Of a stretch of DNA of 20,588 nucleotides, positions 1 to 17,388 are shown piece after piece. Each line of letters opens with the position of its first letter. The stretch's first letter is position 1. The notes under the pieces were generated by a model. It saw only the letters and a list, made by a program, of their open reading frames with translations. It had not been told where the DNA came from and made no database searches. The position numbers and the translations under genes were made by a program. Source of the stretch: a virus (taxonomy: Duplodnaviria; Heunggongvirae; Uroviricota; Caudoviricetes); the IMG/VR virus record IMGVR_UViG_2531839584_000015, one strand, 5' to 3'.

Positions 1-123
1 CCAGAACAATGGGCGCAGGCCGGGCGACTAATTGCATCAGGAGTTCCTCGCCAGAAGGTGGCGATCATTTATGATGTTGGCGTATCGACTTTGTATAAGA
101 AGTTTCCGGTCGGAGATAAATGA
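1..123 (+). pseudogene. 3' end of Pin/Gin/Hin-family serine DNA invertase remnant, cut by the window edge (same sequence as 19174..19296)
   Basis: Window starts inside the reading frame that ends ...KKFPVGDK with TGA at 121..123; identical to the 3' end of the ORF at 18790..19296. Confidence 0.7.
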
Positions 124-203
124 AACCGTAGCACGTCGTATGCAAGAACGTGCCACGGCTGGCTGATAAGCTTGTAAAAATATTGAACAGGGAGTGGAGC
201 ATT

Positions 204-851
204 CTATGAAGCTAATTTGTTTAATTTCATTTGTAGTGACTTTACTTCTTGGTCGATAATGTCGAATCCCTTATTGACAGCATCTCTTAGCTCTGCATCA
301 ATATTTTTTATCCCTTGAGCATAATCTACCATTACATTTATTTTTGCATCATGTAATCTTTTATACATGGTTTTATCTTTGTTATTGTCTGCCATGCCAA
401 TAAGGATTTTTTCATAATCCTCAATGAGTTTGTTGTTTCCTTTAAATGATTGTATTAATGAGCGTGAATATGTGTATATGTTAATTATTGAGTCTCTAGC
501 AGAATCATTTAGTTTTGCAATGACATTCGCATTTTGCTCATAGAATGTGAAATTATCATCCCCTACAGGGAATGTGAGAATCAACATTTGTCCCGGTTTT
601 ATATTATCAATGTGTGTTTTCATCCTTTTATTATATAAATTGATTAGGGTGAAAACTTCTCCCTTAACTCCTTTTAATACTGAAAGTTGTAATTCAAGGG
701 ATTCTCTTTCTGTCTCTACTTTAGACAGCTTAGCTTGTTGGGTGACTCCTTTTAGGGTAAACCATCCGCCAATAAGAGTACCAACTAGAGCTGTGAGGGA
801 GGAGGATAACCATCCAGGTATGCTATTTAAAAGATTACTAAATTCACTCAT
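204..851 (-). CDS. Hypothetical protein, 215 aa, with predicted N-terminal transmembrane helix and coiled-coil; AT-rich cargo gene
   Basis: Intact ORF in track. Hydrophobic stretch IPGWLSSSLTALVGTLIGGWFTL near the N-terminus, then a charged heptad-like segment. AT-rich codon usage unlike the backbone. No family recognised from memory. Confidence 0.55.
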   Translation of the reverse strand: MSEFSNLLNSIPGWLSSSLTALVGTLIGGWFTLKGVTQQAKLSKVETERESLELQLSVLKGVKGEVFTLINLYNKRMKTHIDNIKPGQMLILTFPVGDDNFTFYEQNANVIAKLNDSARDSIINIYTYSRSLIQSFKGNNKLIEDYEKILIGMADNNKDKTMYKRLHDAKINVMVDYAQGIKNIDAELRDAVNKGFDIIDQEVKSLQMKLNKLAS

Positions 852-909
852 TATAAGTACTCGCTAATATTGAACGATATATATATCAAATTATTATAAA
901 ACTCGTCAG

Positions 910-1344
910 CTACTGGAGAAGGCTACCTGAACTTCGAACTATTCCTGCATCCATATAGTTGATGGTCTTCTGGAGCTCTTCGATTAGGGCAACAGCTTTT
1001 GCTCGAGAAATGCATATTAGTTGATCCGGAAATTCTTGTAAGGGCCAGTTTGGTATACAGGCCATGTTATCAGTGAAGGATGCAGACAAGTAAACTTCAT
1101 TGGTAACCAGAGAATAGCTTACCTCAAAATTGGTGAGTTCCGGCAAACTGCTAACGTTTGACTCTTTTCTGCGCATAATATTATCCATGACTGTAATTAT
1201 GTACAGGTGATGGTCTTCAATTTCGAAGAGGGAGTCAAGGGGGAGTCTCAAATGAACCGTTATAGAAAAGGGGGGGATCTTTGTGTTGCTGAACTTATGC
1301 AAAATTTTTTTGCACCATAAATCCAACAACACATTCAATAACAC
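910..1344 (-). CDS. Hypothetical protein, up to 144 aa; start uncertain (track start is GTG at 1344; in-frame ATG at 1188 would give about 92 aa)
   Basis: ORF in track lies immediately upstream of, and on the same strand as, 204..851 (58-bp gap), so a two-gene operon is likely. The 5' part contains a C7 homopolymer (G7 on + strand, 1270..1276) and promoter-like AT-rich sequence, so the N-terminal extension may not be coding. Confidence 0.4.
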   Translation of the reverse strand: MLLNVLLDLWCKKILHKFSNTKIPPFSITVHLRLPLDSLFEIEDHHLYIITVMDNIMRRKESNVSSLPELTNFEVSYSLVTNEVYLSASFTDNMACIPNWPLQEFPDQLICISRAKAVALIEELQKTINYMDAGIVRSSGSLLQ

Positions 1345-1647
1345 ATTGCTGTATCACTATGAAAATAAATGTGTTTTTATTTGATTTCACACATATCACA
1401 ATTGATGCATTTTTTAGTGATTAGTAAAGACATTTCAATGGATTACCGTTAAATCATTTTAAAATCAGTAAGTTGTATCGAGTTTGTATGCTTTACTGTC
1501 ATTAACTTACTGTATGTTGATCCAGTGTATTTAACCTTGATAAACTCAGTCCAGCAACACAAAACCGCAACACATTGCATTTTGTCCCGTAGAAAAGACT
1601 TGTATGTGTGAGCTTGTTTTCTGCGCCTACGCAGATAAGGATTGAGA

Positions 1648-3045
1648 ATGCCGCGCACTGTAACACATAATCCGGATAGCCCCAATAATGACGATGTTTT
1701 AGCCGCATCTGAAAAATGGGACGCCTGTAAACCCCCCTATACCAGCGCACACATGAAAATCTGTGTTGCTGCCGCCAAAATCATCCTCGCTGCTTCCGGC
1801 GTGGCTCGCCGTTCCAAATACGAAAAAGAGAACTATCTCCGTATCGATTTCAGCAAAGCCGGTAAGGTTACATTTTACGCCGAGTTTCCAAAAAAGATGG
1901 GCCTCAAGGGTAAAAAGCTCGGCGAGTGGCCGGAGCTCGCTATCCAGCTGGCGCGCGAAAAAGCGCTAGGTATGGCTGACGGTGGCTTGCGGGCAGAGTC
2001 CGTACATGCAGCGCTGGAAATGTACCGGGATGACCTCAAAGCCAAAGTCGCCCGGCAGAAGCTGAGCCCGGACAGTTTCACAACCTACGGGGTGCGTATC
2101 GACCGGATTAAAGCAACGTTCGGCGAGCGTGAGGTGTTCAGCGACGTAACATACAATCGGCTGGTGGAAGTGCTGGACGAGTGGATCGCCACTCGCTCGA
2201 ACAATAACGCCCTGGAGTTGTTTGCCGAGCTCCGTCGGTTCTGGAAGTTCTGCGCACCTACTCTTTGTAACGGTCGCAATGTTGCTGCCAGTCTGCCAGA
2301 TGATTATGTTTCCTCCCGCGTACAGAAACCCACCCCCACACGGCTTTTTACCGATATTGAGTCAATCGCCCGGCTCTGGCTCAATGTTGCCGCCTGCACC
2401 TCTGTACACCAGAAGAATGCTGTTCGCTTCATGATCATCACCGGCGTTCGTCCGATTAATGTCCATAACCTGCGCTGGGACTACGTTCACGAGGAGACTG
2501 GCGAAATTGTTTATCCTGAAGGGGTTATCGGCATGCGAGGGGCTATGAAAACACAAAAGGCTTTCCCCCTGCCAATAACGCCGGAGATCCGGCGGATTAT
2601 CGACGAGCAGAAAGCATGGCGTGATTCAGTTCCTGAGTGCAACAGGGATTATGTATTTTTGCAGCCGCGTGATCCAATGCAGCCATTTTCAAAACGATCA
2701 CTGGATAAGCTAGTGAAAACATACAGCCCGGATGGGGCTGTAAAAGGAATAAAACATGATGGGACTGTTAAAGGGAAAGACGGTGCATTTAATACGATGT
2801 GCCGTAAATTCCTTAAGAGCAATGTTATTGCCTTGATGAAGGAAAGAGGCTATTCCCGATCAGACCGAAGGGAAATCAGCCTCCTTTGCCTTCACCACTC
2901 CAGCAAGTCAGATGACCCGATGGCAGAACATTACGACTTTTCTGATGAGATTTTGCAGGAAGAGATTGCGTTAAAGCGCGAAGCTTTCGAGGCTCACGAG
3001 CGGAGCATACTTGCGCAGGTGGCATTGCTACGGCGGCGAGGGTAA
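1648..3045 (+). CDS. Tyrosine-type site-specific recombinase (phage integrase)
   Basis: ORF 1642..3045; ATG at 1648 is preceded by TAAGGA (1636..1641). C-terminal region has a catalytic-domain-like layout (R...H-x-x-R...Y: GVRPINVHNLRWDYV, LLCLHHSSKSD, AEHYDF). Confidence 0.8.
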   Translation: MPRTVTHNPDSPNNDDVLAASEKWDACKPPYTSAHMKICVAAAKIILAASGVARRSKYEKENYLRIDFSKAGKVTFYAEFPKKMGLKGKKLGEWPELAIQLAREKALGMADGGLRAESVHAALEMYRDDLKAKVARQKLSPDSFTTYGVRIDRIKATFGEREVFSDVTYNRLVEVLDEWIATRSNNNALELFAELRRFWKFCAPTLCNGRNVAASLPDDYVSSRVQKPTPTRLFTDIESIARLWLNVAACTSVHQKNAVRFMIITGVRPINVHNLRWDYVHEETGEIVYPEGVIGMRGAMKTQKAFPLPITPEIRRIIDEQKAWRDSVPECNRDYVFLQPRDPMQPFSKRSLDKLVKTYSPDGAVKGIKHDGTVKGKDGAFNTMCRKFLKSNVIALMKERGYSRSDRREISLLCLHHSSKSDDPMAEHYDFSDEILQEEIALKREAFEAHERSILAQVALLRRRG

Positions 3046-3242
3046 TACCGGCTGCGACACTTTTGAATAAAAGCGTCGACATTGCGGCGCTCATAACGAA
3101 CTACTTTTGCACTGAAACGAATTGGTGCCAGGATAGCCCGATGACGATGCTTAATATTCCACTCACATAGCGTTTTCTGTGTAATACCTAACTTTTGGCA
3201 TACTTCATCCGGGGTGAGTAAATCGTCGGGTTTCTCGCTCAT
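2994..3242 (-). CDS. AlpA-family HTH protein (excisionase / prophage transcriptional regulator)
   Basis: 82-aa ORF with LLTPDEVCQKLGITQKTLCEW HTH typical of AlpA/Xis-like proteins. Its 3' end overlaps the convergent integrase 3' end by about 52 bp. Confidence 0.65.
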   Translation of the reverse strand: MSEKPDDLLTPDEVCQKLGITQKTLCEWNIKHRHRAILAPIRFSAKVVRYERRNVDAFIQKCRSRYYPRRRSNATCASMLRS

Positions 3243-4636
3243 GCTATACCTCTCTTTTTCATGGCATCGAGCAGGATGTCCTGCACTGTTCGTTTTGAGT
3301 TGCGCCGCTCCATCACCATTTCGTCCATAGTGTCGGCAGCAATAATGTGGTGAATAAATACCGGACGATTGTGTCCGGCCTGTATCTGCCTGGTGGGGCC
3401 GATACGTTCAATAATTTGCTGATATTGCTCCAGGTCCCACCAGTGTGAGAAAAATACCAGTATATTTCCGCCGTCTTGCATGTTCAGGCCGTGGCCCGCG
3501 CTGGCTGGGTGTGCAAAGAGAACAGGAATCTTTCCGGAATTCCAGTCGCGCAGTGTCTGTGGATCCTGGTCGAGGTGACGACCGCGAGGGAATGCTTTAA
3601 GCAAGCGTTCAAGATCGTGTTTCCAGTGATAAGCAACCAGCACAGGTGCGCCAGCTGCTTCGGTCAGTATGCTGTCCAGCGCCTGTAGTTTGGTGTCATG
3701 CAGTTCTGACCAACTTCCGGTGTCGTCTGTGTATACTGCGCCACTGGCGATTTGAAGACACTTCAGTGTCTTTGCCGCGGCGTTCGGTGCTTCGATGCCT
3801 TCGCCATTCAGCTCGAGGAACATTTCCTTTTCCATTTCACGATACTGCTGACGGGCCTTCGGCGGCATATCCACGCGGATTACGTTATGGATGGGGTCTT
3901 TGATATCGAACCAGTCGGCCGCATCTAGCGAGAGGGTCACATCGGCTAATGCTCGCTGTATTTCACCCTGTGAGTGAGCAAAAGGCTCCAGTTTAGTCCA
4001 GCTCTGTCCCGGAAACTGTATCGAGTTGAACCAGCGTGAGGTAAACGCACCGTAAGTGCGCCCGAGACGTTGCCCTTGGTCCACAAACCACGATTGTCCC
4101 CACAAATCTACCAGGCCGTTCGGTGCTGGCGTACCGGTGAGATTTATCCAGCGCCGGACATACTTATGCGCCACTTTGCCCAGTGCCGCCGCGCGCTTAC
4201 CACCACCTCGCAGCCGGAAGGATTTTAGCCGGGTGCTTTCATCTGGAATGACAATACCGAACGGCCATCGTTCTCCCAATTCTTCAACCAGCCAGACAAG
4301 GTTATCGTAGTTGATGGTGAACACGCTTGCGTTGCTGTTCGCCAGCGCCGTAGAGCGCGCTTTGGCATTACCAACAATCGGCTGCACCTCGATATTGCGC
4401 AAATGCCCCCACTTCACTGCTTCATCCGGCCAGGTGTTTGCTGCAACACGTAGCGGCGCGAGGACCAGTGCGGGGCGTGTTTCTGCCCCTGCCATAAAAA
4501 GATCTTCCAGCGCAGTGAGCGTTGCCACGGTTTTACCCATTCCCATACCTGCCCAGATGTTGCAGCGCATAATGTCGATTTGATGATTGATGATGAGATC
4601 TTGGTAGGGGTGAGGTGAAAATATAGCATAGTCCAT
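3239..4636 (-). CDS. SNF2-family (DEAD/DEAH-like) DNA helicase, phage replication
   Basis: Walker A GMGKT, motif II region IVIPDESTRLKS (DE..RLK as in SNF2 proteins), C-terminal helicase domain. RBS GGAGA upstream of ATG at 4636. Confidence 0.75.
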   Translation of the reverse strand: MDYAIFSPHPYQDLIINHQIDIMRCNIWAGMGMGKTVATLTALEDLFMAGAETRPALVLAPLRVAANTWPDEAVKWGHLRNIEVQPIVGNAKARSTALANSNASVFTINYDNLVWLVEELGERWPFGIVIPDESTRLKSFRLRGGGKRAAALGKVAHKYVRRWINLTGTPAPNGLVDLWGQSWFVDQGQRLGRTYGAFTSRWFNSIQFPGQSWTKLEPFAHSQGEIQRALADVTLSLDAADWFDIKDPIHNVIRVDMPPKARQQYREMEKEMFLELNGEGIEAPNAAAKTLKCLQIASGAVYTDDTGSWSELHDTKLQALDSILTEAAGAPVLVAYHWKHDLERLLKAFPRGRHLDQDPQTLRDWNSGKIPVLFAHPASAGHGLNMQDGGNILVFFSHWWDLEQYQQIIERIGPTRQIQAGHNRPVFIHHIIAADTMDEMVMERRNSKRTVQDILLDAMKKRGIA

Positions 4637-4703
4637 GGTATTGTATCTCCATGAATGAACTTATGTAGTAATAGCTTAATTATTTATTTCGAAAGGAACA
4701 GTT

Positions 4704-5582
4704 ATGACCTCAGCTTATACAGATGTCCAGCAAGAAGAAAATATTACTGATAAATTAGTTGTTAAATATGATGGTCCCGCACTAGCAGATCATAAAATAG
4801 ATTTGGATGTTTTAACTGAGTCATTGAATGGACTAAACAACTTGCTTAAAGAAGTTAATTTGGTTGTCAATGGCACTAGTGAGTGTATTAATGTTGAGGT
4901 TGAGCCTTTTAAGGAAGGCTCATTTGAGTATTTGATTGATGTTATTCAAAATCCACTTGACCATTTGAATATATTAAGCATTATTGGGCTTGGAGGTACA
5001 ACTGCACTCGCAGCAGGAAATACTCTCATTGACTTAATTCGTCAGATCAATGGTAGGCAAATAAAACGGTTGACTTTAACAGCGGAAGGAGACTGTAAAA
5101 TAGTTATGGATGATGGTGAGGAAATTATAGCCCCGTCATATTTCCGGCCTTTACTTGCCTCACCAAGCATACGCAAATCCTTATCGAAGTTAATTCATAA
5201 TCCTTTGCAAAAGGAAGGATACGAATCGCTTAAAATTTCAACTCAACAGGGGGTTGAGCTGATTAAGGTGCACGAAGATAATATTGAACCGTTCAGATAT
5301 AGGCGCGTTCCTGTAGTGCAGTCCTTGTCTGAAAGGGTGATTGAAGAGGCTCTAATCACATTTTTGACTATTCATAAGGATAAAAACACAGGCTGGCGAG
5401 TCAACTATGGCGATGACACAATCAGCGTGTCTATAGAAGATACTGAGTTCTTACAACGTGTTAGTACGGGAAGAGAACCTGGTGTTTTTAGTGATGCTTA
5501 CTGCGTTGATTTGCTCGTCCGTGAGAACTTGAATTCGCTGGACAAAACGTACATAGTTGTTAAAGTACACGGCATCTTATAG
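4704..5582 (+). CDS. Hypothetical soluble protein, 292 aa; first gene of AT-rich three-gene cassette
   Basis: Intact ORF with AAAGGAA RBS 7 nt upstream of ATG. A hand count of a 60-nt sample gave about 32% G+C, against about 58% in the neighbouring helicase gene. Opposite strand to the surrounding replication operon. No family recognised. Confidence 0.6.
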   Translation: MTSAYTDVQQEENITDKLVVKYDGPALADHKIDLDVLTESLNGLNNLLKEVNLVVNGTSECINVEVEPFKEGSFEYLIDVIQNPLDHLNILSIIGLGGTTALAAGNTLIDLIRQINGRQIKRLTLTAEGDCKIVMDDGEEIIAPSYFRPLLASPSIRKSLSKLIHNPLQKEGYESLKISTQQGVELIKVHEDNIEPFRYRRVPVVQSLSERVIEEALITFLTIHKDKNTGWRVNYGDDTISVSIEDTEFLQRVSTGREPGVFSDAYCVDLLVRENLNSLDKTYIVVKVHGIL

Positions 5583-5605
5583 TAGATTCACATGGGGAGG
5601 GGGCT

Positions 5606-5854
5606 ATGATTGCTTTTGCTTTTTGGCTGGCTTTTTTTAGCCTGCTTCCCGTACTATATTGGGTTCTTAAGATGGGGTTTGACCGGTTACGCTTTGCGCT
5701 TATGCCTAAACATCATCTTGTTCTTGAATGTGTTGACTCAGAAGGAGTTGTCCGTCGCGATGTCGTTGATGTCTCTTCTGATGATGAATTTTACAAAATT
5801 GCAATGAATGCCATTCGTGCTGGAAGATCAGTCAAAGGAGGGACGTTTGAGTAG
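5606..5854 (+). CDS. Small membrane protein, 82 aa (one N-terminal transmembrane helix plus acidic C-terminal domain)
   Basis: ORF preceded by GGGGAGGGGG RBS-like sequence. N-terminus AFAFWLAFFSLLPVLYWVL is strongly hydrophobic. Sits 24 bp downstream of the 292-aa gene. Confidence 0.5.
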   Translation: MIAFAFWLAFFSLLPVLYWVLKMGFDRLRFALMPKHHLVLECVDSEGVVRRDVVDVSSDDEFYKIAMNAIRAGRSVKGGTFE

Positions 5855-6377
5855 CGCTTCTAAACTTGATAGCTACGAAAAAGTCCCTCTGATTTCTAAT
5901 GTTGCTGCTGGTGGCATCACTGGTTTTTTAACATTACTGGTGTCCTCGTGGGACGGTTGTTTTCCGTATATTGGTTCTGATTTAAATACAATAAAGCCAT
6001 TTCTTTTATTAATGCTTCCCAGTTGCGCTATGTTTCTGGCGCATTGGATAAAGTCGATTGGGTTTAAATGGTCCTTAGGTAGCGTTAATCGACAGTTATT
6101 AAGCATTAATAAGAAGAAAGAAAAAGAACTTCGCCGTGATATTGAAAAGTACAAAAATGTTATTTCTAATGAAAAGATAGAGGACTTTAAAAGTCAACTT
6201 GAACAAGTATTACAAGATCGTCATGATATTATTTCTAATAATTACGCACAGAAACTAAGAGAAAGAAATTATACGCAAGAAAAATATCATGAGCATAAAC
6301 AAACCGCTGCAAATGATAATATTGAGCTGCAAAGCATACTGGAGAATCAGAAGTTCAATCAAAAAGGCATTGACTAA
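5808..6377 (+). CDS. Membrane protein with C-terminal coiled-coil, 176-189 aa; start uncertain (ATG 5808, or in-frame TTG 5847 preceded by AAGGAGG at 5835..5841)
   Basis: ORF overlaps the end of the 82-aa gene in another frame. Two hydrophobic segments (GGITGFLTLLVSS, PFLLLMLPSCAMFLAHWI), then a K/E-rich heptad region. Stop is only 4 bp from the stop of the convergent VRR-NUC gene. Confidence 0.5.
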   Translation: MPFVLEDQSKEGRLSSASKLDSYEKVPLISNVAAGGITGFLTLLVSSWDGCFPYIGSDLNTIKPFLLLMLPSCAMFLAHWIKSIGFKWSLGSVNRQLLSINKKKEKELRRDIEKYKNVISNEKIEDFKSQLEQVLQDRHDIISNNYAQKLRERNYTQEKYHEHKQTAANDNIELQSILENQKFNQKGID

Positions 6378-6381
6378 ATTT

Positions 6382-6651
6382 TTATAATATCCTCTCTAGG
6401 TTCTTGCTATCCAGCACCACTACGGTAAAGCCCAGTTTTCGCAGACGTTCATGTTCGCGCAATTGGTCAGGCCGTGGTGGCTTGCCGGGAGATTTACATT
6501 CAACGAAAACGATACGACCACCTGGTAGCAGGACAATGCGATCCGGTACCGAGCGGTGACCGGGAGATACAAACTTAAAGGCCACTCCGCCAGCTTTTTT
6601 CACTTCAGCGACGAGGTGCTTTTCGATAAGGCTTTCACGTTCATAGGCCAT
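6382..6651 (-). CDS. VRR-NUC domain nuclease
   Basis: Sequence MAYERESLIEKHLVAEVKKAGG...VECKSPGKPPRPDQ resembles the VRR-NUC (PD-(D/E)XK-like) family seen in phage replication modules. Start taken as ATG at 6651, 5 nt after the upstream gene's stop; the track ORF extends to 6678. Confidence 0.6.
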   Translation of the reverse strand: MAYERESLIEKHLVAEVKKAGGVAFKFVSPGHRSVPDRIVLLPGGRIVFVECKSPGKPPRPDQLREHERLRKLGFTVVVLDSKNLERIL

Positions 6652-6940
6652 CTGAATCCCACTCTTCAAAAAGCACATTCAATTCCAGTTTCTCTGCCAA
6701 CGCGTTTTCTGCACGTGCGCCAGCAGAGTACTCCCACTCTTTGAGCATATAAATCGTATCGGCACAGCGAAGCATTGCGAGGCAGATGTCCATATACTGA
6801 GCCTGTGTCAAACCATTGGGTAAAGTTGCGGGGTTAAGCACAACATATCCCTTGTCCGTTAGCCTCTTTGCTGCGGAATGAAAAGCCGGGCGGTTAAATT
6901 GCTCGTAACCGCTCATCGGCCCGGCAACGTAAACGATCAT
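6641..6940 (-). CDS. DUF4406-like protein (nucleoside 2-deoxyribosyltransferase-like fold)
   Basis: N-terminus MIVYVAGPMSG is characteristic of DUF4406 phage proteins as I recall them. ATGA start/stop overlap with the upstream 71-aa gene. Confidence 0.5.
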   Translation of the reverse strand: MIVYVAGPMSGYEQFNRPAFHSAAKRLTDKGYVVLNPATLPNGLTQAQYMDICLAMLRCADTIYMLKEWEYSAGARAENALAEKLELNVLFEEWDSDGL

Positions 6941-7152
6941 TCTTCGACCGCCTTACGCTTTTCACGCATATTCTGCATCAGGCAAAAATCAGATCTGCGT
7001 TCACTCCATTCCTGATTCAGTTCGTGATGTGATTCGCGGTTGGCTTTTGCCCAGACCTTCGCTGCCCGGTCATATTCGCCGGATTGTTCAAGTCGCAAAG
7101 CCTCCCTTGCAGCCCTGTAATAAAGTGGATTGTCCCGGTATTTAAATGACAT
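6937..7152 (-). CDS. Small phage protein, 71 aa, function unknown
   Basis: ORF packed between the polymerase and DUF4406 genes with a start/stop overlap. No confident family assignment. Confidence 0.45.
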   Translation of the reverse strand: MSFKYRDNPLYYRAAREALRLEQSGEYDRAAKVWAKANRESHHELNQEWSERRSDFCLMQNMREKRKAVEE

Positions 7153-7157
7153 AGGAG

Positions 7158-9221
7158 TTAATCCTTACGGTAGTGGTACGCCTCAAAACCGCCAGCGTTC
7201 AGTGGGATATCTGGCGCCCATTCGGGGTTAGTGGAGAGAAGCGCGGAAAGCGCTTTATCGTTGAAATCTTCTGTGTCAGGTGATTCGGTGATCACCTCGT
7301 CGTGTACCGTCAGCACAATGCTGTAACCGGCATCTTCGATAAGCGGCATGTTTCCGGCCAGAACGTCGCGGGCGGCCGCCTGGGTGACGTTCTCCACCAG
7401 CTTTCCGCCGTAGGTTTTGAGTCGTTGCCATTTACGCGAATAAGAGTTAACACCCATGTAGGTGATATTCCCTTGTTCGATAACCGGAGACGGGTAGCAT
7501 ACAGCGCGTCCGGATGGTAGCTGTATGCGCAGCCACGCGCCATCGCGGCGGATTTTAAGATAACCGCAATACAATGTTTTTTGCGGTGTGGCGATTGCTG
7601 TGCGGACGGTGCACTCCAGTTCGTACCAGAAATCACAGGTCGCGGGATGCGCCCGGCGCCAGAGACGTTTAAGTGAGTCGCAGGCGATAAATACCCGTTC
7701 AGAAAGCCCGTAGGTCGATTTACGTTTAACCGATTCGTCGTACCAGCTTTTCGCCTCGCGGATAACATCGCGGGGAATGTTTGGCAGTGCGGCGTTCGCC
7801 AGCCCGTCGAGATCGAGACCGTAAACCAGAGCAAAAGTGATGAAAGCCGATACACCTCCTCCATAACCCAGACCGAGTTCCATGACTTTACCGATCTGAC
7901 GCATGTGTTTATCAACATCATCTGGTGCAATATCGAAAGCTTTTGCATACGCCAGTTTATATAAGTCCGGACCCGTTCCGGCGTCGTACTCTCTGAATGC
8001 ATTCAGTTTCCATTCTTCTCCCGCCAGCCATGCCAGCATACGGCCTTCAATGTTCGACAAGTCACTTACCACCAGCTTTTTGCCTGTTGGCGCGATAATG
8101 CAGCCACGTAACGCTGAACTGGTTAGTTCCATGATATTGTCAAACAGCAGGTCTGCACATCCGGCTTTCAGTGCTTCGATGCCTTCGTCTATTTGTTCCT
8201 GTTTTAGTGAAGGGCGGGGAAGGTTCTGGGGCTGGAATAGCCGTCCGGCCCAACGACCGGTACGTGACGCCCCGCAGAACTGTAGCGTACCGCGTAAGCG
8301 CCCGTCGTGGCTTACGCCTTTCATCAGTGCCTTGTATTTACTGGTGCTGGTAGTACTGGCCTGCAGGCGGATAGCCAGCAGTTCTTTCACGGCAGATGGT
8401 AAATCGGGGTCGGCAATACGACGTTCCAGAGTACTGCGTTGCATGTCTGGTAGCTCCACACCGTAGGATTCAACAATGTGCTTAATCAACGCGTCTCGTT
8501 GTGTGGCTGCCTGCACTTCGCCATCAGTCATTTCCTGTGTACGCTTTGCCAGGCGCTTTTGTTCCTGGTCTACCGCGTCGATCGCAGCGCGTGCGAGTTC
8601 CACGTCCATGCAGACGCCCCGGTCATTGATCTGCTGATCACGATGCCAGAGCGCCAGTTCTGTCCCCTGATAATTCCACTTCGGCAGACGTTTATAGACT
8701 TCGCGCATTGCCTCGATATCCAGTCCGGCGTAAGCAACAAAGCGCCGCCATTCTTCCGGGTGGGTTTTGCTGGTGGCCCGGCGCAGTTTGCTGTTTTTCG
8801 GGCGTGGCTTACAGAACAGCTGGATCAGCGCTTTACCTTCTTTGTCCTTCGCTTTGTCTTGCGGGACGCCTAGTACTTCGCAGAGTTCCCCCAGAGACCC
8901 CGGGAGACCGTGCGCCAGCGCCTGCACCATCGTGTCGCGCCAACGTTCGACTGGCGGTGCCAGTCGCGGCATTGCATAACGCAGGACGGTGCGGTCGAAG
9001 TGAGAGTTATGAAAATAAAGCAGGGTTTCAGGGGCTGCGATTGCTTCGTATAAGCCGTGTGGAATACCACCACCGGCAGTGATATCCCATACGTTTACTG
9101 GCCCGTCGTTGATAGCCCATGCGAACAGCATCACTTCAACGCCTTCGGCATACGCATGGGTACCGTTCGTAATAGGGATTTCGCAATAGGTTTCCAGGTC
9201 GCCCCATAGTATATTGGACAT
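7158..9221 (-). CDS. Family A DNA polymerase with N-terminal 3'-5' exonuclease domain
   Basis: Exo I-like DLET near the N-terminus. Motif A DLSNIEGR, motif [13 protein letters not shown], motif C LTVHDE. Length 687 aa. Confidence 0.85.
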
Positions 9222-9267
9222 GTGTTTACCTTGGTTTTTATTCTATTAACTGATTAAAAGATTAATT

Positions 9268-9897
9268 ATGCATATGATCCAATACTTGATTGACCATACA
9301 GAGCATCTGGAGAAAATAGCTGGATATATTTTTTCATGTTTGATTGTTATGGGAGTCTGGATAAGAAAGATCATTTTTAATTATAAGTATAAAGAGCCTA
9401 AATATGTCAAGAAGTTAATTTTATATTTAGTTAAGTATGAACGTTATCTGGATAAGGAGGATAAGAGTGCCATAGAAAAAAGAATAAATGATAAAATTAT
9501 TCGTGATGCGCTGAAATTGCAATCTTCTTATAACCGAAGTGATGTTATTTACATTTGCAATAGATTAGAAAAAAGACAGTATATAAATCAGGTGATTAAG
9601 CTTCAGAATTATATAGAGAAAGATAACGGAGTGTTTTTCATCAATGTTAATTTTTCAGGTTTTTTATTTATTATTAGTCGTCTGTTTTCCTTTCTGTGTT
9701 TTGTGCTGTTTATCCTTTTTTCTATTATCTGCATTATTTCCATAGGGCAAAATGAAGGCCTTTTAAATTATCTTGTGTATATGGTTATGACAATAGTTTT
9801 AGAGACTGTTGGTTTTTGGATGTATGATACTTTCCCGTCTAAGAAGAAGATCTGTGAACTAAATAAAGAATTGAGGAAGATTAAGATTCCTGAGTGA
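9268..9897 (+). CDS. Hypothetical multi-pass membrane protein, 209 aa; AT-rich single-gene insertion
   Basis: Strongly hydrophobic segments (IFSCLIVMGVWI; FSGFLFIISRLFSFLCFVLFILFSIICIISIG; LVYMVMTIVLETVGFW). Lys/Ile/Tyr-rich, AT-rich codons. Opposite strand to the flanking replication genes. Confidence 0.55.
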   Translation: MHMIQYLIDHTEHLEKIAGYIFSCLIVMGVWIRKIIFNYKYKEPKYVKKLILYLVKYERYLDKEDKSAIEKRINDKIIRDALKLQSSYNRSDVIYICNRLEKRQYINQVIKLQNYIEKDNGVFFINVNFSGFLFIISRLFSFLCFVLFILFSIICIISIGQNEGLLNYLVYMVMTIVLETVGFWMYDTFPSKKKICELNKELRKIKIPE

Positions 9898-9915
9898 TTA
9901 TGCGCCTAATCAGCA

Positions 9916-9934
9916 GCCCGGTATTTAACCGGGC
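9916..9934. terminator. Hairpin between convergent genes (possible bidirectional terminator)
   Basis: GCCCGGT-ATTTA-ACCGGGC, a 7-bp stem with 5-nt loop in the 52-bp gap between 9268..9897 (+) and 9950..10498 (-). Flanking U-tracts are weak. Confidence 0.3.
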
Positions 9935-9949
9935 GTCTATGAAGTAGGG

Positions 9950-10498
9950 TTAAATCAGTGCTTCAGCATCAGCACCTTCGCTGATATCGTCGAAATCGTC
10001 AGCGCTTGCCACTCCGCCGACAGCGAATGCATCGCCGTCTCGCAGGAACTGGACTCCGCCGAGTGAGGCATTAATGCGTTTACCGAAATTATTGTCCTGT
10101 GCCCAGATATCGATAACGGCGTTTACATAGCACCCTGCATAGGGACGTCCATCAGCCTGAATAAGTGGCGAACGATCGCGATCAAGAACAGCTGGGCGCG
10201 CTTTGTTAGCAGCATTCAGGAAGAAATTGCCGGGGAAGCCTTCATACTCTGCTTTTTCATCACCATCATGCAGGCACAGATTGAGTTTTTTCTCCAGTTG
10301 GTTATAAATGGGCTCCCACTTCTCTCCCCATTTTTCCTTCGCTACCTGCTTCATAGCTTTACGGATTTCTTCCAGTTGTGGGTGTTTGGGTGACATTAAA
10401 AATACTGCGGAGAAACGTGGATCGCCTTCGCCGTTTACAGTTTTAGCTTCAAACAGAGACGGGAAGGCCAGACGAACATTGTTCAGCTTCAGTTTCAT
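9950..10498 (-). CDS. DUF2815-family phage protein (SSB-like)
   Basis: N-terminus MKLKLNNVRLAFPSLFE matches the conserved start of DUF2815 proteins, which usually sit next to DUF2800 in phage replication modules. Acidic C-terminal tail. Confidence 0.65.
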   Translation of the reverse strand: MKLKLNNVRLAFPSLFEAKTVNGEGDPRFSAVFLMSPKHPQLEEIRKAMKQVAKEKWGEKWEPIYNQLEKKLNLCLHDGDEKAEYEGFPGNFFLNAANKARPAVLDRDRSPLIQADGRPYAGCYVNAVIDIWAQDNNFGKRINASLGGVQFLRDGDAFAVGGVASADDFDDISEGADAEALI

Positions 10499-10513
10499 GG
10501 GTATTTCCTTAAA

Positions 10514-11815
10514 TCAGATGAGGTCTGCGGTTAGCGTATCGTCGGATACGTCGTCGAAATCATTTACAGGGTTGATATTGAGTGCGGGGCGTGGGTCTGA
10601 CTCGGGAACGATGGTGGGTTTACCATCAGCTCGTGTTATCAGTGCCTCGACTTTTGACCAACGGCGCGGACTGGCCTTTTTGATAAGTTTTTCGGCTTTT
10701 GTGGGGCTAATAAGTTTAAAGTCGAATACTTCTTCAGTTTTGTACCTGAACTGGTCCTTCAGAAGTGCGCGAGCTGCCTCTTCATCACTCCAGGCCCGGT
10801 TACCTTGTTTTCCTGTTACCAGTTTAAACCCCGGTACCGGATGTCCGGCATTGAGTTCATTGTGAACCCGGTCCCGTACTGCCTTTAGCCAGGACTCAAT
10901 AAAGTCGGCCTGGCTATAGATCTCCGCAAGCTGCTCAATGGTTAACAGAGGTACACGTGCGCTGGCATTGGTGATTATTTCGCTGACAGGCTTTGTCAGA
11001 TCTTCAAAGTCGCTGGCCGCTGTTTGTAAATGCTGCATTTTCTGGGCAGTGCAAATAGCTTTTGCTTTACAGAAGCGGCACTGTTTTTCTCCAGGTATGA
11101 AGTTTTCCAGCGGTAGTGTCTCAATGCCTTCGCATTCAGCAATATTGAGAACAAGGATCGCACTGGTTGCGGCCTCCTGTGCTCGTTTACCGAAAGACTG
11201 AAGTTCCTGCACGGTTAACGACCATTCTGAAACGTGGTTGAGCCTTGGCTGGTGAATAAATAATCTTACAGTCTCAAAGTCATACAGCATGCTGAATTGT
11301 TCGAGCGCACCCAGAGCATACAGTTGTAGTTGCTCATTTTGTTCTGCATCAATGCGGACGCCTTTGCCATATTTCAGGTCGTGGATTTGTAATTCGTTAC
11401 CAGCGATGATTATGCCGTCGGCAGTTCCGAAAGATTCTTCCACCCCCGTTATATGTGAGAAATCAACACGTTGTTCAACCAATAGTTCATTATTCTGTGC
11501 AAGAGTCCAGACCGTATCAACATACCGGCCAACGGCTTCGACCATTTCATCATCCACCTGTGGGCCAGATGTATCATCAGGATTTTCGCGAAGGGGGTAT
11601 GAGCCGAGAAACATAGAAACATTGCATCCGGCGTAGTGTTCCGGGTGGCTTTGCCTGTTTCGTAGAACTTTTTCAGCAAGCGCGTGCGCTGCAGTGCCCT
11701 CGATTGCAAAAGTTGTTTCTTTATCCGGTTGTGTGGCCTCCAGCGCCAGACTTCCTGGGCAGCGCATCCATCGATGCGCTGATGATGGAGAAAGTTGTGC
11801 ATGAACGTCTGGCAT
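10514..11815 (-). CDS. DUF2800-family PD-(D/E)XK nuclease (Cas4-like exonuclease)
   Basis: N-terminal [15 protein letters not shown] motif and a C-terminal cysteine cluster ([12 protein letters not shown]) are typical of DUF2800/Cas4-like nucleases. Confidence 0.65.
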
Positions 11816-11817
11816 GA

Positions 11818-12720
11818 TTAACCCTCCAGTGCTTTTTCAGCCAGGGTGATTACTTCAGCGAGATTTTCATCCGTTACTTCACCAAGTTTCCTGGCTCCCT
11901 GTTTTTCCAGAATTGCAATAGCTTCTGCCCGGTAACCCCCTTTTGCTAACTGGAGGATCAACCCTTCAGCTTGTTTGCGTAGTGCCGCGAAATCAATTGT
12001 ATGGTCATCTTTGGCGTCATTATTCTGGCTGGAATTTGCTGCGTCTCTGCGTGCAAATTCTTCCTGCAGCTGAAGGTACTCAACACGGTTGATCTCGATA
12101 TGGCCTTTTTTAAGCATCTCGTTCAACTTGCGTAAGGTGTGGAGTTCACTGGCTGCTGTGCCGGATACATTTTTGACGTAAAACGGCCCCGTGCGTTCTC
12201 CATCTTTGTTACTGGCCTTTTTCGGCTTAACTTCATCACGCCCATCTGCAGGTGCATCAAGTAGTTGCTCGGCAAAAGCACGTCGCTCGCCGATGGTTGG
12301 CAGGTCGTCCCAGAACTTAAGAATGTTACGGGACAGGTCCAGAAGAGCGGGTTTATGCAGTGCCCTGGCTCGTTTGACGCCCTGCAATGCGCTGTCGAGA
12401 GCATCAATCTGAACTACTCGTTTATCGCCTTCAGCATCACGGTAGGCAACAGCACGTTGCAGCATGTCTTCTGTGATAGGGGTGGCTACCGGGTAGAAAC
12501 CAGCCAGTGCGATAACGTCGCTGAACTCCAGATCATCCAGTGTCATTGCCGCTGACATATTTTCAGTTTCAGTTGCTGTATCCCGACATTCCTGCACTCG
12601 TGAAATCGTGTCAGGATGCATAACAATACCTGATGCCATCGTGCGGATAAGACGTTCAAGCAGCGCATTATGTTGTGCCAGAAGTTGATTATTAAGTTCG
12701 AGACTGGTTTCTAAACTCAT
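11818..12720 (-). CDS. Hypothetical phage protein, 300 aa, acidic
   Basis: ORF in track, tightly packed in the operon: 2-bp gap to DUF2800 and ATGA overlap with the upstream small ORF. No family recognised. Confidence 0.5.
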
Positions 12721-12866
12721 ACTGTGGTCCTCGCTACAAGGAGAATGAAAGTGATGATCAGACCGAGCGCAGTGGCAACGGCCAGACCGGTCATCAAATC
12801 GAAGTTTTTACGGCGATAACGGAGAACATCGCGCCCCGTCAGTCGATAGAAGTGTTCAGGTTTCAT
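12717..12866 (-). CDS. Small hydrophobic protein, 49 aa (not in ORF track)
   Basis: Hand translation of the minus strand gives [54 protein letters not shown] lies upstream of the ATG at 12866, and the stop overlaps the ATG of the 300-aa gene (ATGA). Confidence 0.4.
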   Translation of the reverse strand: MKPEHFYRLTGRDVLRYRRKNFDLMTGLAVATALGLIITFILLVARTTV

Positions 12867-12924
12867 CGGTTGTATTCCTTTTTTCATATCGGGGAGCGCG
12901 CTGTTGCGAGTGCGCTTTCAGACA

Positions 12925-12951
12925 TAAAAAAGCCCGTCACTTGCGGCGGGC
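12925..12951 (-). terminator. Putative intrinsic terminator inside the leftward early operon
   Basis: On the minus strand, GCCCG-(10 nt)-CGGGC hairpin followed by TTTTTT, between the zinc-finger gene and the downstream replication genes. Confidence 0.4.
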
Positions 12952-12982
12952 AAAGACTACACACAGCAATTACATGGATGAT

Positions 12983-13177
12983 TCAGTTGGTATTGTGCGT
13001 ACGTGGTACCACAAGGTTGAAGCGGACACGCCAGTGCGTTGCAATGGTATGCAGGAAAGCACCACATCCAGGGCAGTGCTCATAACATTCGTTGATTTGG
13101 TATCGTTTTGGCTTTGGTGTCTGAAGCTGTGTTTGGCAAGCAGGGCATTCACCTTTGAGCGGTTTATACGTTTTCAC
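12983..13177 (-). CDS. Small Cys4 zinc-finger protein, 64 aa; first gene of the leftward early operon
   Basis: CPAC...(17 aa)...CPGC arrangement. GTG start at 13177 with AGGAAA RBS upstream. Confidence 0.5.
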   Translation of the reverse strand: MKTYKPLKGECPACQTQLQTPKPKRYQINECYEHCPGCGAFLHTIATHWRVRFNLVVPRTHNTN

Positions 13178-13460
13178 GCCGTTTCCTCATTCAGTTCACT
13201 TTGGTGGTTCGGCGGCTTCGACTTGTATCAGTAGACAGTGCTTCGCCGCACCCCAAAGGGAACTTACTGACCCGTATTGCCGACATCCTGTCCCGCCACG
13301 GTCCCGACGCATGGTTTAGAGTCGCGCCGTTCGACTTGTGGCTAAAGATACAATTTGAGTTGTATTGTGTAAACCACAAATGTGGTATTTTGTGGGGTGT
13401 GAATACTACTTTATTGATATTTAAGTGAATTTAATTTGTAAGACTTTACAAATGGGGTAA

Positions 13461-13480
13461 GGGAGGCTGTTACGCCTCCC
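13461..13480 (-). terminator. GC-rich hairpin just downstream of the repressor gene
   Basis: GGGAGGC-(6 nt)-GCCTCCC, a 7-bp stem, lying 20-40 nt past the cI-like stop on the minus strand. U-tract is imperfect. Confidence 0.3.
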
Positions 13481-13499
13481 GATATTTACGGTGGGAATA

Positions 13500-14123
13500 C
13501 TAACGTTTACGGCGGTAAATACGGTGTTCGATCATTACACCTATGATCTGTAAGTTCATATCTGCACTACGAAAAATAGGGTAATCAGGATTTAGGGGGA
13601 TTAATTCAAAGTCGTCGATGCCGATTCCTAATGGACGGTATTTTTTAAATGTAGCTTCGTGACCGTCGTTTTTGGCGACAACAAACTCCCCTGGTGCAGG
13701 ACATAGATCAGGATCGATGATAACAATGTCTCCTTCTTTAAACTCTGGTTGCATGCTGTCGCCATCAATACGTAATGCGAAGCATGTTTCTGGAATGTCA
13801 GAGTCTGCCAAAATATATTCAAATTCCCCTGTCAGATCTGTTATGTCTCTTGCTTCTGTAAGCTCTCCTGCCTGAACGTAACTTAATATAGGTATGCGTC
13901 TGGTACTTATCTCCGCGAGAGGCATAATATTTTTACCGTTCAGTAGCCAGTCTGGGCTACATTTCAAGGCCTTAGCCAGATCCAGAAGATTGCGCGGCTT
14001 TCTGGTTCGTCCACTTTCGATGGATTCTATGGATTGTTGGCTAACCCCTGCAGAATTCGCTACTTCCACTTGAGTCATTCCTAATTCCAAACGACGTGCT
14101 TTAAAACGGGCTGCGAGAGACAT
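13500..14123 (-). CDS. cI-like phage repressor (XRE-type HTH + LexA-like S24 peptidase domain)
   Basis: HTH LGMTQVEVANSAGVSQQSIESIE; Ala-Gly cleavage site (VQAGEL); Ser/Lys dyad context (GDSMQPEF, VVAKNDG). Start taken at ATG 14123 (MSLAARF...) with AAGGA RBS; the track ORF extends 17 codons further upstream. Confidence 0.8.
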   Translation of the reverse strand: MSLAARFKARRLELGMTQVEVANSAGVSQQSIESIESGRTRKPRNLLDLAKALKCSPDWLLNGKNIMPLAEISTRRIPILSYVQAGELTEARDITDLTGEFEYILADSDIPETCFALRIDGDSMQPEFKEGDIVIIDPDLCPAPGEFVVAKNDGHEATFKKYRPLGIGIDDFELIPLNPDYPIFRSADMNLQIIGVMIEHRIYRRKR

Positions 14124-14456: not shown

Positions 14457-14459
14457 CCC

Positions 14460-16805: not shown

Positions 16806-16806
16806 T

Positions 16807-17357: not shown

Positions 17358-17388
17358 TATCCAGCAATCAATCACGTAAGGGAACCAG

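What the first reader, a model, noticed from the sequence alone, without database searches (positions are those of the whole stretch)
4637..6381. AT-rich three-gene cassette inserted against the replication operon: candidate novel accessory or anti-phage system
Three co-directional genes (292-aa soluble protein; 82-aa single-pass membrane protein; 176-189-aa membrane protein with coiled-coil) sit on the + strand between the minus-strand SNF2 helicase and VRR-NUC genes. The cassette is markedly AT-rich: a hand count of a 60-nt sample gave about 32% G+C against about 58% in the helicase gene. It has its own RBSs, and its last stop codon is only 4 bp from the stop of the convergent VRR-NUC gene, which suggests a precise insertion. 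None of the three proteins matches a family I recognise. This is the layout of a moron or defence hotspot in a phage or satellite genome.
Basis: partly seen in the sequence, partly recalled or inferred. Interest (0 to 1): 0.85.

Follow-up and report, generated by a model that had tools for sequence, protein, structure and literature searches.

The report
Prophage gp29-like anti-phage gene cassette
An AT-rich three-gene insert in an E. coli prophage's variable cargo slot encodes a relative of a mycobacteriophage anti-phage protein (MichelleMyBell gp29) plus two new small membrane proteins, so it is most likely an untested variant of a known prophage defence system.

Summary
Three co-directional genes (292 aa; 82 aa with one TM; 176 aa with two TMs and a coiled coil) lie at 4704-6377 (+). 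They sit between the minus-strand SNF2 helicase and VRR-NUC genes, 4 bp from the VRR-NUC stop. G+C is 37.8% against 50-54% in the flanks.

The slot is a true cargo hotspot. Of 5426 complete E. coli genomes, 153 carry the flanks and only 17 carry this cassette. Other alleles hold BstA, a weak TIR-like match, a cytosine methyltransferase or Rha/Arc regulators.

P1 matches PADLOC candidate PDC-S42 (E 6e-40) and NCBIfam NF053583. It is homologous over most of its length to MichelleMyBell gp29 (hhalign 97-98%), the soluble half of the validated gp29/gp30 defence. P2 and P3 are unrelated to gp30.

The trio travels as one unit, always at 37-41% G+C, through unrelated prophages and an integrative element in nine gammaproteobacterial genera. 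Distant P1 homologues are solitary genes beside integrases, repressors or restriction-modification genes.

Best reading: a prophage-expressed abortive-infection-type defence in which P1 senses infection and P2/P3 act at the membrane. Function is inferred, not shown. It is a new variant of a known kind, of moderate interest.

The parts
4637..4703 (.). 67-bp AT-rich (28% G+C) spacer between the divergent helicase start and the P1 start. It presumably holds the cassette promoter and carries the P1 RBS (AGGA, 6 nt before the ATG).
   Evidence: Sequence and G+C. The consensus scan found no sigma-70 match at its threshold here, so the promoter is inferred, not located. Homology with other hotspot alleles is lost from helicase codons about 1-7 outward.
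4704..5582 (+). P1, 292 aa, soluble and acidic. It is a member of the gp29 / PDC-S42 / 'LAPAL' family and the predicted sensor (possibly also effector). Predicted parts: N-terminal alpha/beta domain (about 16-80), a Gly/Ala-rich hydrophobic segment (about 88-115), a middle domain (about 117-200) and a C-terminal OB-fold-like barrel (about 205-292).
5606..5854 (+). P2, 82 aa. One N-terminal transmembrane helix (1-23) and a roughly 55-aa C-terminal tail predicted to be cytoplasmic, since positive residues follow the TM. Strong RBS GGGGAGGGGG.
   Evidence: phrog_15510 E 2e-55. Homologues of 78-83 aa follow P1 homologues in the loci examined; in two of them (L027, L029) no gene was called at this position. 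No similarity to gp30.
5847..6377 (+). P3, 176 aa (TTG start; an alternative ATG at 5808 gives 189 aa). Two transmembrane helices (about 15-33 and 50-72), then a conserved juxtamembrane motif HWIKSIGFKWSLGSVNRQLLSINKKKEK and a long charged helical / coiled-coil region predicted to be cytoplasmic. It overlaps the P2 stop by 8 nt, which suggests translational coupling.
   Evidence: phrog_15878 E 2e-118 over residues 14-189. A 4-14-nt overlap with the P2 homologue is seen in seven other loci. No similarity to gp30.
6378..6381 (.). 4-bp gap between the convergent stops of P3 and VRR-NUC. This is the right edge of the variable slot.
   Evidence: Junction comparison with four other alleles. No terminator-like hairpin lies between the genes.
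3239..4636 (-). Left flank of the hotspot: SNF2-family helicase of the prophage replication module.
   Evidence: Pfam SNF2-rel_dom 5e-12. Conserved flank in 153 E. coli genomes.
6382..6651 (-). Right flank of the hotspot: VRR-NUC / PD-(D/E)XK nuclease gene. The PGAP start is at 6651; the longest ORF runs to 6678.
   Evidence: Pfam VRR_NUC E 0.001, below the gathering score. PGAP name. Conserved flank.

Best explanation
The cassette is a horizontally mobile, prophage-carried anti-phage system. It is a gammaproteobacterial, three-gene variant of the mycobacteriophage MichelleMyBell gp29/gp30 defence.

Proposed mechanism. The genes are transcribed from their own promoter, opposite to the repressed replication operon, so they are probably made in the lysogen. 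P1 is a cytoplasmic protein. Its conserved C-terminal OB-fold-like domain would recognise a product of an infecting phage, either a protein or single-stranded nucleic acid. P1 would then act on, or together with, P2 and P3. These are two inner-membrane proteins whose soluble parts are predicted to face the cytoplasm. The outcome would be loss of membrane integrity or potential, which aborts the infection before progeny are released.

Shown here:
- gene structure and operon-like coupling;
- purifying selection on all three genes;
- foreign base composition;
- location in a variable cargo slot that elsewhere holds BstA;
- co-inheritance of the three genes across unrelated mobile elements;
- homology of P1 to gp29 / PDC-S42.

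Inferred, not shown:
- expression in the lysogen;
- any anti-phage activity;
- P1 as the sensor;
- physical contact between P1 and P2/P3;
- the membrane as the target.
For: P1 family assignment. PDC-S42 E 6e-40; NF053583 193.7 bits against a cut-off of 60. MichelleMyBell gp29 aligns to the P1 family profile over 267 columns (hhalign 98.4%, E 7e-15). It aligns to the profile of the trio sub-clade alone over 235 columns (96.9%). gp29 itself hits PDC-S42 at 1.6e-16.

What is known of gp29/gp30. gp30 is a 67-aa protein with two hydrophobic segments, and its gene overlaps the end of gp29. That is the same soluble-then-small-membrane order seen here. The literature describes gp29/gp30 as a prophage defence of abortive type against phage Tweety (PMC6426606, PMC8549241, PMC11856565).

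Hotspot. 153 genomes carry the flanks and 17 carry the cassette. Alternative alleles include BstA (PADLOC 1.4e-115), a weak TIR-effector match (E 3e-7), a C5 methyltransferase and Rha/Arc regulators. All inserts are 34-44% G+C, and homology breaks at the gene ends.

Co-transfer of the trio at 37-41% G+C whatever the backbone:
- beside the integrase of Klebsiella and E. coli lambdoid prophages;
- in the same helicase/nuclease slot in Salmonella;
- beside type I restriction-modification or T6SS genes on an Aeromonas element;
- inside the tail genes of a Pantoea myovirus prophage;
- inside Mu-like head genes in Pseudoalteromonas;
- beside the integrase of a PM2-like Vibrio prophage of another virus realm.

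Solitary distant homologues sit in classic moron or defence positions: after a cI-like repressor next to hicAB; near type ISP restriction-modification genes and methyltransferases; between lysin and integrase in phage A2; and beside the integrase in Listeria and Bifidobacterium phages.

Selection. pN is well below pS for all three genes.
Against: - There are no experimental data for this cassette or for any proteobacterial member. PDC-S42 is an untested candidate (bioRxiv 10.1101/2024.01.29.577857).
- P2 and P3 show no similarity to gp30, so only one of the two gp29/gp30 components is shared.
- Identity to gp29 is low (21-26% in the profile alignments), so function may have diverged.
- Most P1-family members are solitary, so P1 may not need, or may not signal to, membrane partners.
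- No promoter or terminator was located.
- NCBI curators name the family 'putative phage structural protein'.
- The primary gp29/gp30 paper (Dedrick 2017, PMC5508108) could not be read here. Its content is taken from papers that cite it.
Confidence: 0.45

Rival explanations
1. Toxin/regulator reading. P1 is itself the effector, toxic when unrestrained. It might act through its conserved Gly/Ala-rich hydrophobic segment or by binding DNA through the OB-fold domain. P2 and P3 would be lineage-specific restrainers, anchors or immunity factors rather than effectors. The module would work as a toxin-antitoxin-like abortive or addiction system.
For: P1-family genes are solitary in many lineages, so the family can function without P2 and P3. 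The family has a nearly fixed length of about 275-350 aa with no fused effector domains. gp29 is described as the toxic component and gp30 as a membrane protein (PMC11856565). A moderately hydrophobic, Gly-rich segment is conserved across the family. In one E. coli genome the P3 homologue is cut by an IS66 element while P1 and P2 stay intact.
Against: The hydrophobic segment is only borderline (maximum Kyte-Doolittle 19-mer 1.1-2.2) and is modelled with low confidence. Nothing here shows that P1 is toxic. Strict co-inheritance and translational coupling of P2 and P3 fit effectors as well as regulators.
Confidence: 0.2
2. Superinfection exclusion at the envelope. P2 and P3 in the inner membrane block DNA entry of incoming phages, as HK97 gp15, P22 SieA or T4 Imm do. 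P1 would be an accessory factor.
For: Two small inner-membrane proteins are made from a prophage moron. Morons that sit inside tail or head operons, as in Pantoea and Pseudoalteromonas, are a layout known for exclusion genes. This last point is from my own knowledge of HK97 gp15.
Against: The largest and most conserved component is a cytoplasmic protein that also occurs without any membrane partner. Its mycobacteriophage relative is reported to act after adsorption and DNA injection (PMC6426606). No similarity to known Sie families was found in Pfam, PHROGs or PADLOC.
Confidence: 0.12
3. Non-defence lysogenic-conversion cargo. The cassette could be a membrane-stress, colonisation or prophage-maintenance factor that benefits the host or the element without acting on phages.
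For: There is no direct functional evidence. AT-rich morons have many roles, and the same slot also holds regulators (Rha/Arc) in other alleles.
Against: P1 is homologous to a validated defence protein and belongs to a family picked out because its genes lie embedded in restriction-modification, BREX and DISARM loci (bioRxiv 10.1101/2024.01.29.577857). Homologues recur next to restriction-modification, TA and BstA-type genes.
Confidence: 0.1
4. Phage structural or morphogenesis protein, as the NCBIfam name 'LAPAL motif-containing putative phage structural protein' suggests; or a lysis accessory (holin/spanin-like P2 and P3).
For: The NCBIfam name. In Pantoea and Pseudoalteromonas prophages the trio lies among baseplate or head genes. 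P2 and P3 are small membrane proteins.
Against: The cassette is absent from 136 of the 153 related E. coli prophage loci. It is found in myovirus-, lambdoid-, Mu-like and PM2-like prophages and in a non-phage integrative element. It always has foreign composition. In the window it is in the early/lysogeny region on the opposite strand. The intact prophage has its own holin, endolysin and a full morphogenesis set elsewhere. The window's own element has lost all structural genes but keeps the cassette.
Confidence: 0.03

Closest known systems
MichelleMyBell gp29/gp30 (DefenseFinder 'MMB_gp29_gp30'), a cluster N mycobacteriophage prophage defence
   Same: P1 is homologous to gp29 over most of its length. 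In both, the soluble protein of about 300 aa is followed at once by a small membrane-protein gene. Both are prophage-borne, lie near the lysogeny or att end, and have lower G+C than their flanks. A Vibrio trio member is already annotated with the gp29 profile name.
   Different: There are two membrane partners (82 aa with one TM; 176 aa with two TMs and a coiled coil) in place of one 67-aa two-TM gp30, with no detectable similarity. The host is a gammaproteobacterium, whereas the system was reported as found only in Actinobacteria (bioRxiv 10.1101/2023.03.30.534874). Activity is untested.
PADLOC phage defence candidate PDC-S42 / NCBIfam NF053583 (LAPAL family) / Pfam DUF7946
   Same: P1 scores as a member. 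The family is large, with 4557 50%-identity clusters at E<=1e-3. Its genes lie in prophage lysogeny modules and near restriction-modification genes.
   Different: PDC-S42 is catalogued as a single-gene candidate, whereas here and in eight other gammaproteobacterial genera it is one of three genes. The literal LAPAL motif reads LTESL in P1. The Pfam DUF7946 match is below the gathering score (22.3 against 27).
Lambda RexAB, Gordonia phage CarolAnn gp44/gp43, mycobacteriophage Sbash gp30/gp31
   Same: They share the functional layout: a prophage-expressed cytoplasmic sensor plus membrane protein(s), proposed to depolarise the membrane when a specific phage product appears (PMC6426606).
   Different: No homology was found. 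P1 has no DUF4747 (RexA) match, and RexA is not among the top structural matches. RexB and gp43 have four TMs. This is an analogy of mechanism only.
BstA (prophage abortive-infection protein)
   Same: It occupies the very same helicase/VRR-NUC slot in related E. coli prophages, which marks the slot as a defence hotspot.
   Different: The protein is unrelated: a single-gene, DNA-binding system.

Membership tests
PADLOC PDC-S42 (candidate, single gene) | Match to the PDC-S42 profile HMM | tested here: met
   PDLC05015 E 6.1e-40, 135.6 bits, covering residues 17-288 of 292.
PADLOC PDC-S42 (candidate, single gene) | Stand-alone gene | tested here: not met
   Here, and in the related loci from eight other gammaproteobacterial genera, P1 is followed by P2 and P3 homologues or by at least P3. 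Distant members are solitary.
NCBIfam NF053583 LAPAL_fam | Score at or above the curated cut-off (60 bits) | tested here: met
   193.7 bits, E 4.5e-57.
NCBIfam NF053583 LAPAL_fam | Literal LAPAL motif near the N-terminus | tested here: not met
   The aligned position reads D-V-L-T-E-S-L in P1, against D-L-A-P-A-L-L in distant members.
NCBIfam NF053583 LAPAL_fam | Structural role in the virion, as the name implies | not testable with these tools
   Context argues against it: a variable slot, presence in unrelated virus types and in a non-phage element, and retention in an element that lacks structural genes.
Pfam DUF7946 (PF25678) | Score at or above the gathering threshold (27 bits) | tested here: not met
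   22.3 bits, residues 19-81 only. Several 77-78% identical homologues carry a precomputed PF25678 hit.
MMB gp29/gp30 defence system | gp29 homologue | tested here: met
   hhalign 98.4% (E 6.6e-15, 267 columns) against the family profile and 96.9% (E 1.4e-10, 235 columns) against the trio sub-clade profile.
MMB gp29/gp30 defence system | Adjacent gp30 homologue (67 aa, two TMs) | tested here: not met
   P2 and P3 profiles against gp30 give hhalign probabilities of 0.4% and 0.2%. Only the position and the membrane location are analogous.
MMB gp29/gp30 defence system | Protection of the lysogen against heterotypic phage by abortive infection | not testable with these tools
   Needs plaque, survival and one-step growth assays.
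RexAB-like exclusion systems | RexA-type DUF4747 sensor and a four-TM RexB-type partner | tested here: not met
   No DUF4747 hit at E<=0.1. P2 has one TM and P3 two. RexA is absent from the top structural matches.
Holin / spanin lysis proteins | Match to holin or spanin families and location in the lysis cassette | tested here: not met
   No Pfam, PHROG or NCBIfam lysis hit for P2 or P3. The intact prophage's holin and endolysin lie about 12 kb away.

The most novel reading that the evidence does not exclude
The gp29 / PDC-S42 family may be a very widespread phage-sensing module built around an OB-fold-like domain, found in Proteobacteria, Firmicutes and Actinobacteria. It would work alone in most lineages and has repeatedly recruited unrelated, lineage-specific membrane partners: gp30 in mycobacteriophages and P2 plus P3 in gammaproteobacteria. 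On this reading the window's trio is a previously undescribed three-component membrane-acting abortive-infection system of enterobacterial prophages. The system thought to be restricted to Actinobacteria would then be one branch of a pan-bacterial family.
Probability: 0.4. Interest if true: 0.6.

Novelty: new variant of a known kind. Interest (0 to 1): 0.5.

Why it matters
If active, the cassette would extend the gp29/gp30 defence to E. coli, Salmonella, Klebsiella and marine gammaproteobacteria. That system has so far been reported only in Actinobacteria and its mechanism is unknown. E. coli would give a genetically easy host in which to work it out.

It would also turn the single-gene bioinformatic candidate PDC-S42 into a defined three-gene unit. 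And it documents a specific cargo slot between helicase and VRR-NUC in a common family of PolA-type enterobacterial prophages. That slot already contains BstA and could be mined for further systems.

Practically, cassettes like this in clinical E. coli and Salmonella lysogens can limit the host range of therapeutic phages.

Tried and rejected
- Sequence search of the P1 family profile against PDB sequences gave only noise (E >= 0.28).
- The AF2 model of P3 is weak (pTM 0.28) and was not used for fold searching.
- The promoter/terminator scan found no convincing promoter in the upstream spacer and no terminator at the convergent junction.
- The search for related loci failed with the broad alignments and gave only 4 loci with the narrow one. 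Context was therefore built from exact-protein look-ups and phage records.
- Literature searches for PDC-S42, DUF7946, 'LAPAL motif', the three RefSeq protein accessions and phrog_3243 returned nothing.
- The primary gp29/gp30 paper (PMC5508108) is not held.
- Rejected readings: satellite element (the backbone is a truncated full prophage); lysis or structural role (see rivals); RexAB membership (no DUF4747).
- The 231-aa neighbour of a 28%-identical P1 homologue (L010) is not a P2/P3 fusion. It is proline-rich with a C-terminal winged-helix match.
Full report
1. OBSERVATION

The window carries three co-directional plus-strand ORFs: 4704-5582 (292 aa), 5606-5854 (82 aa) and 5808/5847-6377 (189 or 176 aa). 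They lie between the minus-strand helicase (3239-4636; SNF2-rel_dom 5e-12) and a VRR-NUC-type nuclease gene (6382-6651/6678).

For the third gene the TTG at 5847 is the better start:
- the PHROG profile covers residues 14-189 of the long form;
- PGAP uses this start in identical genomes;
- most homologues begin there;
- GGAGGG lies 3 nt upstream.

This start overlaps the stop of gene 2 by 8 nt.

The cassette is 37.8% G+C, against 53.5% for the helicase, 50.4% for VRR-NUC and 54.3% for PolA. GC3 is 0.30-0.35 against 0.57. The contrast is real but smaller than stated.

All three ORFs are genuine genes. Against Klebsiella and Pantoea homologues the non-synonymous difference is 0.17-0.36 while synonymous sites are saturated at about 0.74-0.79.

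P1 has no hydrophobic segment above the threshold used. P2 has one N-terminal TM (1-23). P3 has two hydrophobic helices (about 15-33 and 50-72) followed by a long, highly charged helical region. By the positive-inside rule, the P2 tail and the P3 coiled coil face the cytoplasm. This is an inference.

2. WHERE THE WINDOW COMES FROM

Window 1386-17974 is 99.99% identical to the left arm of a 41.7-kb E. coli prophage integrated between yfhL and yfhH, for example in NZ_LR882978. That prophage has, in order:
- an integrase and an HTH regulator;
- the SNF2 helicase, the cassette, VRR-NUC, DUF4406 and an ANR regulator;
- PolA, DUF2815 and DUF2800;
- a LexA-like repressor, a VapE primase and a Q antiterminator;
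- lysis and morphogenesis genes.

The host element is therefore a temperate phage, not a satellite.

3. THE SLOT IS A CARGO HOTSPOT

Of 5426 complete E. coli genomes, 153 match the flanks and only 17 contain the cassette.

Other alleles of the same gap include:
- a 310-aa BstA (PADLOC 1.4e-115);
- a 'BstA C-terminal domain' protein with a DUF7446 protein;
- a cytosine methyltransferase with two hypothetical proteins;
- a Rha regulator with two Arc-family proteins;
- a DUF6338 protein;
- a 236-aa hypothetical protein;
- in phage vB_EcoM-606R2, two small proteins, one with a weak TIR-effector match (E 3e-7).

Homology between alleles ends within the first seven or so helicase codons and the last codons of VRR-NUC. 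All five inserts examined are AT-rich, at 34-44% G+C.

A Salmonella relative of the prophage, integrated at a different site, carries the trio in the same slot (P1 89% identical).

4. WHAT THE PROTEINS ARE

P1 is not an orphan.
- It matches PADLOC PDC-S42 (E 6.1e-40).
- It matches NCBIfam NF053583, 'LAPAL motif-containing putative phage structural protein' (193.7 bits against a cut-off of 60).
- It matches phrog_3243 (1e-100).
- Below threshold, it matches the N-terminus of Pfam DUF7946.

PDC systems are untested candidates. They were chosen because their genes lie embedded in restriction-modification, BREX or DISARM loci (bioRxiv 10.1101/2024.01.29.577857).

A profile search of 1.84 billion cluster representatives found 4557 members at E<=1e-3 and 936 at E<=1e-30. 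Nearly all are 275-350 aa, so the architecture is fixed and has no fused effector domains.

P2 and P3 match only PHROGs of unknown function (phrog_15510, phrog_15878). They have no Pfam, NCBIfam or PADLOC family. Homologues of P3 were found only in Enterobacterales by the word-indexed search.

5. LINK TO A VALIDATED DEFENCE SYSTEM

A Vibrio homologue is annotated with the profile name 'MMB_gp29_gp30__gp29'. I tested this lead.
- A Bifidobacterium-phage family member hits gene 29 of mycobacteriophage MichelleMyBell by tblastn.
- gp29 (310 aa) aligns with the P1 family profile over 267 columns (hhalign 98.4%, E 6.6e-15).
- gp29 aligns with a profile built only from the trio sub-clade over 235 columns (96.9%, E 1.4e-10).
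- gp29 hits PDC-S42 at 1.6e-16.

gp30 is a 67-aa protein with two hydrophobic segments, and its gene overlaps the end of gene 29.

According to papers that cite the primary study:
- MichelleMyBell prophage defence is of the abortive type, with adsorption and injection proceeding (PMC6426606);
- it reduces Tweety plating by four to five orders of magnitude and is countered by Tweety gp54 (PMC8549241);
- DefenseFinder was reported to detect it only in Actinobacteria (bioRxiv 10.1101/2023.03.30.534874).

The primary paper (PMC5508108) is not held, so I could not check these points at source. P2 and P3 have no similarity to gp30.

6. THE THREE GENES TRAVEL TOGETHER

A P1 homologue is followed by a 78-83-aa single-TM protein and then by an overlapping 157-176-aa membrane / coiled-coil protein in:
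- Klebsiella and E. coli lambdoid prophages, directly after the integrase;
- Salmonella, in the same slot;
- an Aeromonas integrative element, next to type I restriction-modification genes in one strain and T6SS genes in another;
- Pantoea, within a myovirus baseplate cluster;
- Photobacterium;
- two Pseudoalteromonas Mu-like prophages, between gpG and gpI/gpT;
- a PM2-like (Vinavirales) Vibrio prophage, next to its integrase.

Sequence similarity of P2 and P3 fades by about 35% P1 identity, but size, topology, order and the P2/P3 overlap persist.

In two of these loci (L027, L029) no P2-sized gene was called between the P1 and P3 homologues. I did not check whether the ORF is really absent there.

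In every one of these hosts the trio is 37-41% G+C, against backbones of 43-58%.

The placements among head and tail genes probably explain NCBI's 'structural protein' name.

By contrast, homologues at 25-34% identity are solitary:
- after a cI-like repressor and beside hicAB in a Marichromatium prophage;
- near a type ISP restriction enzyme;
- among methyltransferases;
- between endolysin and integrase in Lactobacillus phage A2 (ORF19);
- beside the integrase in Listeria phage vB_LmoS_188 and Bifidobacterium phage PMBT6.

One homologue is followed by a proline-rich protein with a winged-helix match.

7. STRUCTURE

The AF2 model of P1 (pLDDT 77, pTM 0.60) shows:
- an N-terminal alpha/beta domain;
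- a low-confidence Gly/Ala-rich hydrophobic stretch (about 88-115), which is conserved in character across the family;
- a middle domain;
- a C-terminal domain.

Four columns are invariant in the 42-sequence alignment: W231, D246 and F249 in the C-terminal domain and G72 in the N-terminal domain. No enzyme-like fold or PDB sequence relative was found.

The P3 model is a TM hairpin running into long helices, but its confidence is low (pTM 0.28).

8. MECHANISM

I commit to a prophage-expressed, abortive-infection-type defence. P1 recognises an infection cue through its OB-like domain. It then acts with P2 and P3 at the inner membrane to collapse membrane function.

The shown steps are those listed in sections 1-6. 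Expression, sensing, P1-P2/P3 contact and the membrane as target are inferred. The inference rests on homology to gp29, on analogy with RexAB and CarolAnn gp44/gp43 (PMC6426606), and on topology.

The main rival (0.2) reverses the roles. Because most family members are solitary and gp29 is described as toxic, P1 may be the effector and P2/P3 its restrainers.

The other rivals are less likely: envelope-level exclusion (0.12), non-defence cargo (0.1) and a structural or lysis role (0.03).

9. VERDICT

Novelty: a new variant of a known kind. Function remains unproven. Interest is moderate, at 0.5.

Noticed in passing
window 1-1415 = 19174-20588; att core 1386-1423; IS26-like element about 17975-18794: The window is a 19,173-bp unit with an exact 1415-bp terminal repeat. 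It contains an attP-type junction: the prophage right arm (pinE fragment plus 215-aa and 144-aa ORFs), a 38-bp core TTCACACATATCACAATTGATGCATTTTTTAGTGATTA, and then the integrase. Compared with the intact 41.7-kb yfhL/yfhH prophage, an IS26-family element replaces about 23.4 kb of lysis and morphogenesis genes and cuts the 5' end of pinE. The sequence is therefore an excised-circle or tandem form of an IS26-deleted prophage. It keeps the integrase, replication module, repressor, Q and the cargo genes but has no structural genes.
   Followed up: partly
window 9268-9897 (+): This is a second AT-rich insert (29.5% G+C) on the opposite strand, between PolA and the DUF2815 gene. It encodes a 209-aa protein with several hydrophobic segments. 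It matches phrog_10579 (unknown function) and has no PADLOC, Pfam or NCBIfam family. It is probably another moron slot in the replication operon.
   Followed up: partly
window 204-851 (-) and 910-1344 (-); repeated at 19377-20024 and 20083-20517: Two AT-rich ORFs lie at the att-proximal right end of the prophage, between pinE and the att core. The 215-aa ORF has GC3 0.29 and no family hit. The 144-aa ORF matches only phrog_17793. This is a typical position for further lysogenic-conversion or defence cargo.
   Followed up: no
L004:1838-2770; L005:1888-2379 and 3109-3870; rows: Related prophages carry other cargo in or near the same slot. These include BstA (PADLOC 1.4e-115), a 'BstA C-terminal domain' protein with DUF7446, a cytosine methyltransferase and DUF6338. 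In phage vB_EcoM-606R2 there is also a TIR-domain protein matching candidate PDC-S35 (E 1e-108), placed between VRR-NUC and PolA. The replication module of this prophage family therefore has at least two or three cargo slots.
   Followed up: partly
L025:6142-6423: In one E. coli genome (CP062876) the P3 homologue is cut to 93 aa by an IS66-family insertion, while the P1 and P2 homologues stay intact. This natural P3 knock-out could be informative about toxicity.
   Followed up: no
L027:5001-6657 and L029:5001-6673: In these two loci (one E. coli, one Salmonella) gene calls list the P1 and P3 homologues but no 82-aa gene between them, although a gap of the right size is present. I did not check whether the P2 ORF is disrupted or merely uncalled.
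   Followed up: no
L006, L007, L008, L012-L015 and L019 (trio coordinates as): The trio keeps 37-41% G+C in every host examined, although the backbones range from 43 to 58%. In enterobacteria such AT-rich DNA is a likely target for H-NS silencing. That would bear on when the cassette is expressed (the H-NS point is my inference).
   Followed up: no
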